IMG/VR virus record: IMGVR_UViG_2740892230_000034
Length of the DNA: 24,793 nucleotides
Direction: 5' to 3' (one strand)
Origin: a virus
Taxonomy: Duplodnaviria > Heunggongvirae > Uroviricota > Caudoviricetes
Positions within the stretch are counted from its first letter, which is position 1. Every line of letters begins with the position of its first letter. The notes under the pieces are model-generated. The model saw only the letters and a program-made list of their open reading frames with translations, did not search any database and was not told the DNA's origin. The position numbers and the translations under genes are program-made. Below, one piece after another: positions 6,462 through 7,259 of this stretch.

Positions 6462-7189
6462 TATGCAACATTACTCCCATGAATCAGGTGTTGTAGTGCT
6501 TTAACACCTTCCTCATTGTAGCGGAATGCTTCCACCTGTTTGCTGGAATGCGCAGATTTATCCAGGAAGAACTTCCCGTACTGCTCAGTTTTGAGGTTGT
6601 TTGCGTTAGCAATGCGACCAATCTTGTTGGCCGTTACTCCAAGCTGCTCTGCAACCTCCCCTGCTGAGTAGTAATGCTCTTCTATTGCTGGAAGAGGTAT
6701 TGCATTAAAACCAACGATCGGGTTGATTATGCTTGCTGCCGCAGTCTGCTTTGCTTCCGGCGCAAGATTTGGCATCAAATCGAACAGATTGGTAACAGCT
6801 TCAACCGTCATTTTCAATGTTCGCGCCTGGCGATACTCAACAAGTCCACTAGACGATTTACCGCTTTTAATGTGCGCTTCTTGCATACTTTCAAGTTGGT
6901 CTACAAGTGAGCGGCGAACAGCTTTAGATTCACGAGCAGCCACTCGAAGGGCTTGCTTAATTGACATAACAACTTTTTCAGAAGTTGTCTTGTTTGATTT
7001 TTGAACTACGAAAATTTCGTAGTGCTCACCTTCAAGTTCATCCTTAATGCGTGCAATAAAGTCGTTATTGCGGACTTCTTTTTCCCCGCACTGTCTACGA
7101 GCATGATTGACCATCTCTAACAGGTACTGGCTATCAATGGTTTTATCCGTGACAACGGATCCGATGTTTGCTACATTCTTAAAAGTCAT
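6461..7189 (-). CDS. Antirepressor-like protein with a KilAC-like C-terminal domain (242 aa from ATG 7189)
   Basis: Shine-Dalgarno AAGGAA 7 nt upstream of ATG at 7187-7189. The C-terminal YYSAGEVAEQLGVTANKIGRIANANNLKTEQYGKFFLDKSAHSSKQVEAF resembles the phage antirepressor KilAC domain. The ORF-track start at 7240 is probably an artefactual upstream extension. Confidence 0.6.
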   Translation of the reverse strand: MTFKNVANIGSVVTDKTIDSQYLLEMVNHARRQCGEKEVRNNDFIARIKDELEGEHYEIFVVQKSNKTTSEKVVMSIKQALRVAARESKAVRRSLVDQLESMQEAHIKSGKSSSGLVEYRQARTLKMTVEAVTNLFDLMPNLAPEAKQTAAASIINPIVGFNAIPLPAIEEHYYSAGEVAEQLGVTANKIGRIANANNLKTEQYGKFFLDKSAHSSKQVEAFRYNEEGVKALQHLIHGSNVA

Positions 7190-7259
7190 TAGGCATTCCT
7201 TATGTGGTAGTAAGGGTGTGACATAGGCCGCCAGCAGCACACTGGCGGTTTTCTTTTTG
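7167..7259 (+). ncRNA. Candidate sar-like antisense RNA 2 (promoter motif TTTGCTACATT plus intrinsic terminator), antisense to the start and RBS of the antirepressor-like gene at 6461-7189
   Basis: Extended -10-like TGcTACATT at 7169-7177. Plus-strand terminator with stem CCGCCAG (7228-7234) / CTGGCGG (7242-7248) followed directly by TTTTCTTTTT. Predicted RNA about 75 nt. Confidence 0.4.

What the first reader, a model, noticed from the sequence alone, without database searches (positions are those of the whole stretch)
7167..7259. Second, duplicated sar-like antisense module upstream of the second antirepressor-like gene
The motif TTTGCTACATT (7167-7177) is nearly identical to the TTTGCTACAAT of the first module (7888-7898). 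It is followed by TGACATAGG and then a strong plus-strand terminator (CCGCCAG / CTGGCGG followed by TTTTCTTTTT), in the same order as the first module. This suggests each of the two antirepressor-like genes has its own antisense control RNA, a duplication not present in the canonical P22 immI as I know it. The terminator could alternatively stop read-through from the plus-strand mnt-like gene at 5968.
Basis: seen in the sequence. Interest (0 to 1): 0.6.

Follow-up and report, generated by a model that had tools for sequence, protein, structure and literature searches.

The report
Private antisense RNA for second antirepressor
A P22-like prophage of E. coli 55989 has two unrelated antirepressor genes in one operon, and the second carries its own conserved, unannotated ~75-base antisense RNA gene built like phage P22's sar RNA, which most likely blocks translation of that gene; this is a new example of a known control device, not a new kind.

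Summary
On the + strand, GTGACA-17 nt-TGcTACATT (7149-7177) lies inside codons 5-14 of the second antirepressor gene (ant2, 6461-7189, minus strand). A strong intrinsic terminator follows (stem 7225-7251, T-run 7249-7258). The predicted RNA of about 75 nt (about 7184-7258) is complementary to ant2's start codon and Shine-Dalgarno sequence. It exactly fills the ant1-ant2 gap, as P22 sar fills the arc-ant gap.

The 10/11 motif match to module 1 is not beyond chance (53 of 500 shuffles). The comparative evidence is strong. In 20 diverse Ant2 genes (42-82% amino-acid identity), the synonymous bases that make up the -35, TG and -10 never change, while neighbouring synonymous sites vary freely. The terminator stem has compensatory changes in 4 of 9 pairs. 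Every lineage keeps a 5' hairpin plus a terminator.

Module 2 is not a copy of sar. Rfam's sar model and a broadened sar model both miss it, and Ant1 and Ant2 are unrelated proteins. The terminator is not tied to the mnt-like gene at 5968. Tandem antirepressor genes, each with its own sar-type module, recur across Enterobacterales.

No transcript data exist, so repression of ant2 translation is inferred by analogy with sar. I found no prior description.

The parts
7149..7154 (+). -35 hexamer GTGACA of the antisense promoter, embedded in ant2 codons 12-14
   Evidence: Present in every aligned homologue. The third base of codon 12 is T and codon 13 is GTC in 20 of 20 diverse genes, while the third base of codon 14 varies freely.
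7169..7177 (+). Extended -10 element TGcTACATT (TG 7169-7170, hexamer 7172-7177), embedded in ant2 codons 5-7, 17 nt after the -35
   Evidence: Homologues keep TGn-TA[AC]A[GT]T. Codon 5 is always AAT or ACT, codon 6 always GTA or TTA, and codon 7 always NCA. P22 Psar has the same layout: GTGTTA-17-TGcTATACT.
7184..7258 (+). Predicted antisense RNA ('sar2'), about 72-75 nt. The 5' end is inferred from P22 Psar spacing and the 3' end from the T-run.
   Evidence: P22 annotation for spacing. MFE -25.1 kcal/mol, z -2.5. Predicted homologous RNAs are 63-79 nt. Not annotated in RefSeq and no Rfam hit.
7185..7222 (+).
   Evidence: A 5' hairpin is predicted in 19 of 19 lineages, mean z -1.59. The closing helix changes with codon 2: GUCA/UGAC, GCAU/AUGU, CUCA/UGGG.
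7225..7258 (+). Intrinsic terminator: stem 7225-7251 (core CCGCCAG/CTGGCGG), loop CAGCACA, T-run 7249-7258
   Evidence: 98.5% of cells paired, 4 of 9 pairs with compensatory changes, 0 of 500 shuffles reach the observed value. There is no T-run on the minus strand.
7187..7201 (-). ant2 translation initiation region, the target: ATG 7189-7187 and SD AAGGA about 7201-7197
   Evidence: CDS start agrees with RefSeq EC55989_RS13370. Fully complementary to the predicted RNA.
6461..7189 (-). ant2: 242-aa antirepressor-like protein
   Evidence: phrog_1726 'anti-repressor', E 9e-101. Residues 14-106 are 58-64% identical to the Ant proteins of P1 and P7. No Pfam, NCBIfam or PDB hit.
7278..7904 (-). ant1: Bro-N plus P22_AR_C antirepressor-like protein
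   Evidence: Not homologous to Ant2.
7890..7979 (+). Module 1: a genuine sar homologue (TGcTACAAT 7890-7898; RNA about 7905-7979)
   Evidence: Local alignment to P22 Psar/sar was matched in 0 of 1000 shuffles. Same two-hairpin fold, z -6.4. 70.8 bits with the broadened sar model, of which it is a training member.
7978..8151 (-). arc-like ribbon-helix-helix (RHH) repressor gene, first gene of the operon
   Evidence: Pfam Arc, 8e-12.
8193..8220 (-). Pant-like promoter TTGACA-16-TAAATT, divergent from the mnt-like gene at 8263-8583 (+)
6212..6233 (-). Minus-strand terminator after the small ORF 6240-6461, the likely end of the arc-ant1-ant2-orf73 unit
   Evidence: No minus-strand terminator was called between ant1 and ant2.

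Best explanation
The region 7149-7258 (+) is a self-contained gene for a small cis-antisense RNA. An extended -10 sigma-70 promoter is hidden in codons 5-14 of ant2 and fires away from the gene. The transcript starts at about 7184 and reads across the complement of codon 2, the start codon and the Shine-Dalgarno sequence of ant2. It stops at an intrinsic terminator 20 nt short of the ant1 stop codon. The RNA has two hairpins: a 5' hairpin carrying the anti-SD, and the terminator. By pairing with the ant2 ribosome-binding region on the polycistronic arc-ant1-ant2 mRNA it blocks Ant2 translation, and the duplex may also be cleaved. This is how P22 sar RNA controls ant, and the neighbouring sar homologue (7905-7979) would control ant1 in the same way.

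The rationale is inferred. The operon sits inside the late operon between the ejection-protein genes and the tailspike gene. Operator-bound Mnt and Arc can stop initiation at Pant but cannot stop read-through transcripts. Each antirepressor cistron therefore needs its own post-transcriptional brake.

Shown here: the sequence elements, their position-specific conservation, terminator covariation and the conserved fold. Inferred: the transcript itself, its exact ends and the repression.
For: Elements and coordinates.

The geometry matches annotated P22 Psar/sar: promoter in the first codons of ant, 17-nt spacer with TGn, an RNA of 68-70 nt ending at the upstream gene's stop.

Synonymous-site test on 20 diverse Ant2 genes: codons 2, 5, 6, 7, 12 and 13 show 100% codon identity among pairs with the same amino acid, and codon 13 is GTC in 20 of 20. 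The adjacent codon 14 scores 0.31, and the gene background is 0.42-0.53. Intervening codons 3, 4 and 8-11 vary freely, so this is not simply a young recombinant segment.

Terminator: 98.5% paired, 4 of 9 pairs compensatory, 0 of 500 shuffles, and slid controls at 19-54%. The two wobble variants in the core stem (L082, L088) are G-U on the + strand and would be A-C mismatches on the minus strand. T-runs are always present.

A 5' hairpin is predicted in 19 of 19 lineages (mean z -1.59), and its closing helix covaries with codon 2.

Loci identical through the terminator diverge immediately after the T-run into at least 5 different contexts, so the terminator marks the edge of the mobile unit. Klebsiella phage phiKp_30 carries ant2 plus the module alone.

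The module-2 covariance model finds the element at the 5' end of relatives not used to build it: Yersinia, Proteus, Providencia, Photorhabdus, Pantoea, Chimaeribacter and Erwinia.

Cognate duplex -155 kcal/mol against -44 kcal/mol for the non-cognate ant1 leader.

The role of sar RNA in P22 is documented (PMC12197685, PMC2629481, PMC12111858).
Against: There are no expression data for this or any homologous locus, so the start site and the RNA itself are predictions. Promoter-like matches in the region are no commoner than in shuffles, and TACATT matches only 4 of 6 consensus positions. In the window's own variant the anti-SD lies in a helix arm rather than a loop, which could slow pairing. 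Support for stem-loop I is moderate; four lineages have z near 0. The compared sequences are related, so the shuffle statistics overstate independence. Ant2 homologues from Stx phages, which have a different N-terminus, lack the module, so the protein family does not strictly need it.
Confidence: 0.72

Rival explanations
1. The RNA is made, but silencing ant2 in cis is not its main job. It could act in trans from the prophage against incoming phages carrying the same ant2 cassette, as an RNA layer of immunity or exclusion. It could also work mainly through convergent-transcription interference with the ant operon.
For: The module moves with ant2 as a unit bounded by the terminator. That is what one expects if RNA and target must stay matched, and it makes trans specificity possible. 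Prophage antisense RNAs with exclusion roles exist: STnc6030 in BTP1 (PMC7067206) and sas in P22 (PMC12197685).
Against: Nothing here distinguishes cis from trans action, and the two are not exclusive. The RNA covers exactly the ribosome-binding region, which points to translational control as the molecular step in either case.
Confidence: 0.12
2. The hairpin plus T-run is only a plus-strand terminator or insulator. It stops read-through from the mnt-like gene at 5968 or stray antisense transcription before it enters ant1. The promoter-like motif is not functional.
For: The mnt-like gene's terminator has a poor T-run on the + strand (sequence). Promoter-like hits are not enriched.
Against: Among the 24 representative loci, the mnt-like gene lies downstream of ant2 only in L085 and L087 (the window and JEP4 also have it). 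The terminator is kept in nearly all of these loci; the Stx-type locus L074 lacks it. This reading also fails to explain the invariant synonymous bases at exactly -35, TG and -10 with a fixed 17-nt spacer, or the conserved 5' hairpin.
Confidence: 0.08
3. The conserved elements work on the sense (minus) strand. The GC hairpin would be a processing, stability or translation-coupling structure in the ant1-ant2 intercistronic mRNA. The fixed codons would reflect translation-initiation or protein-binding constraints.
For: Covariation proves a helix but not which strand uses it. Sequences near start codons are often constrained. A further GC hairpin (7260-7273) lies beside it.
Against: Variant pairs are G-U on the + strand, which would be A-C on the minus strand, and none shows the opposite pattern. 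A T-run follows the stem in every lineage and only makes sense on the + strand. The fixed synonymous bases reach codon 13, 37-39 nt into the gene, and spell a -35/-10 pair with 17-nt spacing. The neighbouring module 1 is a demonstrable homologue of an experimentally characterised antisense RNA gene.
Confidence: 0.08

Closest known systems
sar RNA of Salmonella phage P22 (immI region; Rfam RF00262)
   Same: Both are cis-antisense RNAs whose extended -10 promoter lies in the first codons of an antirepressor gene. Both have a 17-nt spacer and a size of about 70 nt. Both have two hairpins, a 5' stem-loop with the anti-SD and a terminator. Both end at the stop codon region of the upstream gene, and both sit in an mnt/arc/ant operon between the ejection-protein genes and the tailspike gene.
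   Different: There is no detectable sequence homology beyond the -10 region. RF00262 and a broadened 20-sequence sar model both miss it, and alignment to P22 sar is at shuffle level. The promoter sits 6 nt deeper in the gene, so the RNA also covers the start codon and codon 2. The -35 matches the consensus better (GTGACA against GTGTTA). The target gene is a different protein family and is the third cistron rather than the second.
c4 antisense RNA controlling icd-ant in phages P1 and P7 (immI)
   Same: An antisense RNA limits synthesis of an antirepressor. The N-terminal domain of Ant2 (residues 14-106) is 58-64% identical to the Ant proteins of P1 and P7.
   Different: By my own knowledge and PMC12197685, c4 is processed from the same transcript upstream of its targets and pairs through short loop sequences. 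Here the RNA is a convergent, fully complementary cis-antisense transcript with its own promoter and terminator.
Other phage cis-antisense RNAs (lambda OOP against cII, P22 sas against sieB, BTP1 STnc6030)
   Same: Short or medium prophage-encoded antisense transcripts that tune a single phage gene (PMC12197685, PMC7067206).
   Different: They differ in target position (3' end or internal), size and function. None is paired one-per-cistron with tandem antirepressor genes.

Membership tests
sar RNA family (Rfam RF00262) | Scores at or above the family's gathering threshold (43 bits) with the Rfam covariance model | tested here: not met
   No hit in the window at gathering, and none at E<=10 with permissive filters over 5800-8700. 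Positive control: P22 sar scores 97.8 bits. The model also misses module 1, so it is narrow.
sar RNA family (broadened: P22 plus 19 homologues upstream of Ant1-type genes, model R1) | Significant score with a covariance model built from diverse genuine sar homologues | tested here: not met
   With filters off over the whole window, R1 hits only 7905-7979 (70.8 bits) and gives nothing at 7184-7258 at E<=10. The reciprocal test, model R2 on module 1, gives 12.9 bits, E 0.85.
sar-type antisense control (works like sar) | Promoter inside the first codons of an antirepressor gene, firing antisense across its ribosome-binding site | tested here: met
   GTGACA-17-TGcTACATT lies in codons 5-14 and is conserved at synonymous positions in 20 of 20 diverse genes. 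This is sequence-level evidence only.
sar-type antisense control (works like sar) | RNA of about 65-80 nt with a 5' stem-loop and a 3' intrinsic terminator that fills the intercistronic gap | tested here: met
   Predicted lengths 63-79 nt, two hairpins in 19 of 19 lineages, terminator covariation.
sar-type antisense control (works like sar) | The transcript exists and represses antirepressor translation | not testable with these tools
   No RNA-seq or reporter data are available. Literature searches found no data for this locus.
Intrinsic (Rho-independent) terminator | GC-rich hairpin immediately followed by a U-run on the transcribed strand | tested here: met
   Stem 7225-7251 of 10 pairs (6 G-C), 7-nt loop, TTTTCTTTTT. 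The minus strand has no T-run after the stem.
P22-type immI region | Divergent mnt and arc-ant units with sar, located between the ejection-protein genes and the tailspike gene | tested here: met
   Arc-fold proteins at 8263-8583 (+) and 7978-8151 (-), ant1 with the P22_AR_C domain, sar homologue, tailspike at 3856-5835. Same order in phage JEP4 and P22. Extra here: ant2, orf73 and a third RHH gene.
Antirepressor (Ant2 protein) | Homology to an experimentally characterised antirepressor | tested here: met
   Residues 14-106 are 58-64% identical to Ant of P1 and P7 (E about 1e-25 to 1e-29). Full-length match to phrog_1726 'anti-repressor'. Binding to this prophage's repressor was not tested.

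The most novel reading that the evidence does not exclude
One antisense RNA per antirepressor cistron may be a general design rule of multi-antirepressor immI operons in Enterobacterales phages. Each ant gene, of whatever protein family, would travel horizontally as a cassette bounded by the terminator of its own private sar-type RNA. These RNAs would come in at least two unrelated families and would give cassette-specific, RNA-based silencing that also acts in trans on incoming phages carrying the same cassette. That would be an unrecognised layer of immunity specificity.
Probability: 0.35. Interest if true: 0.6.

Novelty: new member of a known kind. Interest (0 to 1): 0.45.

Why it matters
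If the RNA is real, P22-type immunity-I regions are more modular than the textbook single mnt-arc-ant-sar unit. Antirepressor genes of unrelated families would come with their own built-in antisense brake and could be stacked in one operon.

It would also add an RNA family to annotation. The family is conserved from Escherichia to Serratia, Proteus, Yersinia and Photorhabdus, but is absent from Rfam and from RefSeq annotation.

It also illustrates a promoter encoded entirely within synonymous positions of a coding sequence.

Practically, it predicts that Ant2-type antirepressors, which are related to P1 Ant, are silenced post-transcriptionally in lysogens and late in infection. That bears on prophage induction and superinfection behaviour in pathogenic E. 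coli.

Tried and rejected
- Rfam at gathering and permissive thresholds gave no sar hit for either module. Only chance-level hits appeared, such as symR at E 0.73 on module 1.
- Treating the TTTGCTACAxT similarity as evidence by itself was rejected, because it was reached in 53 of 500 shuffles.
- A recent duplication of module 1 was rejected by reciprocal covariance-model tests and by the lack of Ant1/Ant2 homology.
- A leader peptide in ant2's 5' region was considered: ATG at 7222, MSHPYYHIRNA, with the stop overlapping ant2's ATG. It was rejected because the ATG or the reading frame is not conserved (ACG in L058, in-frame fusion in L066).
- The 'TGACATAG' motif shared by the two modules is explained as the 3' arm of the stem-loop I closing helix, not as a separate signal.
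- No independent minus-strand promoter for ant2 was called in 7190-7300, so co-transcription with ant1 is assumed.
- A formal covariation count for stem-loop I was not possible, because MAFFT does not align that variable-length helix in register. Per-sequence folds were used instead.
- Pfam, NCBIfam and PDB sequence searches gave nothing for Ant2.
- The primary sar papers (Liao 1987; Schaefer and McClure 1997) are not in the held library.
- Literature searches for a second sar-like RNA or for transcriptomics of strain 55989 found nothing relevant.

Full report
**Where this is.** The window matches the E. coli 55989 chromosome at 100% identity (NC_011748.1). The region is the immunity-I ("ant moron") segment of a P22-like prophage. 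On the minus strand the genes run as follows:

- a Pant-like promoter (8220-8193)
- an Arc-fold gene (8151-7978)
- ant1 (7904-7278; Bro-N plus P22_AR_C domains)
- ant2 (7189-6461)
- a 73-codon ORF (6461-6240)
- a minus-strand terminator (6233-6212)
- the tailspike gene (5835-3856)

Two further Arc-fold genes lie on the + strand, at 8263-8583 (the mnt position) and at 5968-6225. RefSeq calls the same coding sequences and annotates no RNA gene. Escherichia phage JEP4, a Lederbergvirus, has the same layout. P22 has only mnt, arc, sar and ant before its tailspike gene.

- The consensus scan independently called GTGACA-17 nt-TACATT with an upstream TG (7149-7177, +). It ranked the hairpin at 7225-7251 with its T-run first among the terminator-like sites it listed for 5700-8900.
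- Read against the gene, the -10 and TG lie in ant2 codons 5-7 and the -35 in codons 12-14.
- Using the spacing annotated for P22 Psar (six bases between the -10 and +1), the RNA would start near 7184 and end in the T-run at 7249-7258. That is about 75 nt.
- The RNA would be complementary to codon 2, the ATG (7189-7187) and the AAGGA Shine-Dalgarno sequence (about 7201-7197) of ant2.
- It stops 20 nt before the ant1 stop codon. P22 sar likewise ends at the arc stop codon, and module 1 here ends at the arc-like gene's stop.
- The predicted fold is a 5' stem-loop plus a terminator hairpin (-25.1 kcal/mol, z -2.5). P22 sar and module 1 have the same two-hairpin plan.

**Is it more than chance?** Not on the motif alone.

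- A 10/11 match between the two regions occurred in 53 of 500 shuffles. The best local alignment between modules 1 and 2 is a 17-nt stretch at the -10, reached in 11 of 1000 shuffles.
- Promoter-like sites are not enriched in the region.

The case therefore rests on relatives. I collected 80 IMG/VR loci and 55 genome loci encoding Ant2 relatives.

**Promoter conservation.**

- Every full-length relative keeps, on the antisense strand, GTGACA, then 17 nt, then TGn-TA[AC]A[GT]T. The hosts include Serratia, Buttiauxella, Pantoea, Citrobacter, Proteus, Erwinia, Kluyvera, Atlantibacter and Advenella, and protein identity runs from 42% to 82%. Locus L093 is deposited as Chryseobacterium, but its sequence looks enterobacterial.
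- I ran a codon-level test on 20 diverse genes. Among sequence pairs sharing the amino acid, codon identity is 100% at codons 2, 5, 6, 7, 12 and 13.
- At those codons, Leu is always TTA, Val6 always GTA, codon 7 always NCA, the third base of codon 12 always T, and Val13 is GTC in 20 of 20.
- The very next synonymous site, the third base of codon 14, which lies just outside the -35, is G, T or C (identity 0.31). The gene-wide background is 0.42-0.53.
- Codons 3, 4 and 8-11, which lie between the hexamers, vary freely even at the amino-acid level.

So conservation is position-specific and spells a promoter. It is not a recently exchanged block.

**Terminator and fold conservation.**

- In a 29-sequence alignment, the 9-pair terminator helix is paired in 98.5% of cells.
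- Four pairs show changes on both sides: CCGCCAG/CTGGCGG, CCGCCAA/TTGGCGG, GCCGATAG/CTATCGGC, CCAGCAG/CTGCTGG and GCCAACAG/CTGTTGGC.
- No shuffle out of 500 reaches the observed values, and slid controls fall to 19-54% paired.
- The wobble variants are G-U on the + strand. They would be A-C mismatches on the minus strand, and none shows the opposite pattern.
- A T-run always follows the stem. Together these points identify the + strand RNA as the functional reading.
- A 5' hairpin is predicted in 19 of 19 lineages (mean z -1.59; 15 of 19 below -1).
- Its closing helix pairs the complement of ATG plus codon 2 with the bases just before the terminator, and it changes with codon 2: GUCA/UGAC, GCAU/AUGU, CUCA/UGGG.
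- In many lineages the anti-SD UCCU sits in the apical loop. In the window's own variant it lies in a helix arm.

**Module boundary and the rival terminator role.**

- Loci that are identical through the terminator diverge immediately after the T-run into at least five unrelated upstream contexts.
- Klebsiella phage phiKp_30 carries ant2 with this module and no ant1, inside a segment flanked by perfect 50-bp direct repeats.
- So ant2 and its antisense unit move together, with the terminator at the edge.
- The mnt-like gene at 5968 accompanies ant2 only in the window, JEP4, L085 and L087. Of the 24 representative loci, only L085 and L087 have it, yet the terminator is kept in nearly all of them; the Stx-type locus L074 is the exception. 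Stopping read-through from that gene therefore cannot be the terminator's main reason for existing.

**Is it a duplicate of sar?** No.

- Module 1 (7890-7979) is a clear sar homologue. Its local alignment to P22 Psar/sar was matched in 0 of 1000 shuffles.
- Rfam's sar model scores P22 at 97.8 bits but misses both window modules.
- A broadened sar model built from P22 plus 19 homologues upstream of Ant1-type genes (R1) finds only module 1 in the window at E<=10 with filters off.
- A module-2 model (R2) scores module 1 at 12.9 bits, E 0.85, which is level with random terminators.
- Ant1 and Ant2 are not homologous.
- Ant2 belongs to phrog_1726 ("anti-repressor"). Its residues 14-106 are 58-64% identical to the Ant antirepressors of P1 and P7.

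Module 2 is therefore a separate RNA family that works like sar, attached to a different antirepressor family.

**How general is it?**

- The order mnt / arc - ant1(Bro-N type) - ant2 recurs across the representative loci, and each Ant1-type gene there has its sar-type module.
- I scanned 63 loci with both models. Twenty-four carry both an R1 and an R2 hit.
- Ten of those were not used to train R2. They come from Yersinia, Proteus, Providencia, Photorhabdus, Pantoea, Chimaeribacter and Erwinia.
- Five Xenorhabdus loci carry two sar1-type hits.
- In L100, arc is followed by two different ant-like genes, each directly preceded by its own sar1-type module.
- P22 has one R1 hit and no R2 hit.
- Ant2 relatives from Stx phages, which have a replaced N-terminus, have neither hit.

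**Mechanism.** By analogy with sar, which pairs with ant mRNA and blocks translation initiation (PMC12197685), I infer that the RNA masks the ant2 ribosome-binding region.

- It would be specific to its own target. The cognate duplex is about -155 kcal/mol, against -44 kcal/mol for the ant1 leader.
- No minus-strand promoter or terminator was called between ant1 and ant2, so ant2 is probably co-transcribed with arc and ant1.
- In P22-like phages this segment is also crossed by late-operon transcripts on their way to the tailspike gene (PMC2629481, PMC12111858). Operator-bound Mnt and Arc cannot stop those transcripts. A per-cistron antisense brake is thus a sensible requirement for each added antirepressor gene. 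This last step is inference.

**Limits.**

- No transcript has been observed, and the RNA ends are predicted.
- The sequences compared are related, so shuffle counts overstate independence.
- Stem-loop I could not be tested by column-wise covariation because its length varies.
- The primary sar papers were not available.
- I found no earlier description of this second RNA in the held literature. That library is incomplete.

**Verdict.** The interpretation, a private sar-like antisense RNA for the second antirepressor gene, is supported by comparative evidence. "Duplicated" is true of the architecture but not of the sequence. This is a new, unannotated member of a known kind of regulator, of moderate interest.

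Noticed in passing
L002 (Klebsiella phage phiKp_30) 2456-2505 and 3564-3613: Perfect 50-bp direct repeats flank a 1.1-kb segment holding part of the mnt-like gene, ant2, the antisense module and the last codons of ant1. It looks like a cassette captured by recombination or duplication at the insertion site.
   Followed up: partly
window 5968-6225 (+) and 5836-5967: A third Arc/Mnt-fold gene lies convergent to the ant operon and divergent from the tailspike gene across a 130-bp intergenic region. It might regulate a tailspike-proximal promoter. 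It is present in JEP4, L085, L087 and Salmonella phage VSe13, but absent from most ant2 loci.
   Followed up: partly
window 7260-7273: A GC-rich hairpin, GCGCCGTCCGGCGC, sits between the T-run of the antisense terminator and the ant1 stop codon. It is semi-conserved (GCGCCATCCCATGCGCC in many relatives) and its role is unknown.
   Followed up: no
window 7190-7222 (-): A short upstream ORF, MSHPYYHIRNA, has a TAA stop that overlaps the ant2 ATG (TAATG). It is not conserved in relatives (ACG in L058, in-frame in L066), so it is probably incidental.
   Followed up: yes
L100 2182-2253 and 3234-3308; also L096, L104, L105, L122 (Xenorhabdus): Two sar1-type antisense modules occur in one operon, each directly upstream of a different ant-like gene. 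One gene has a KilA-N-like N-terminus with an Ant2-type C-terminus; the other is Rha-like.
   Followed up: partly
L101 (Photorhabdus temperata) 1964-2035 and 2079-2147: A sar1-type hit and a module-2-type hit lie only 44 nt apart with no ant gene between them. This may be a relic of a deleted ant1.
   Followed up: no
window 7905-7979; Rfam RF00262: The Rfam sar model is too narrow. It scores P22 sar at 97.8 bits but misses the window's clear sar homologue, and by implication the homologues upstream of Ant1-type genes in many Enterobacterales. This explains why no ncRNA is annotated here.
   Followed up: yes
L074-L078 and Stx2a-converting phages (for example NC_049924.1 4527-5234): Ant2 relatives in Stx phages (62-68% identical, annotated anti-repressor or Roi) have a different N-terminus and 5' region. 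They have neither antisense-module hit and only a weak hairpin.
   Followed up: partly
window 6461 (-): The ant2 stop codon and the start of the 73-codon ORF (phrog_4977, unknown function) overlap, which suggests translational coupling. The pair is also adjacent in L013 and JEP4.
   Followed up: no
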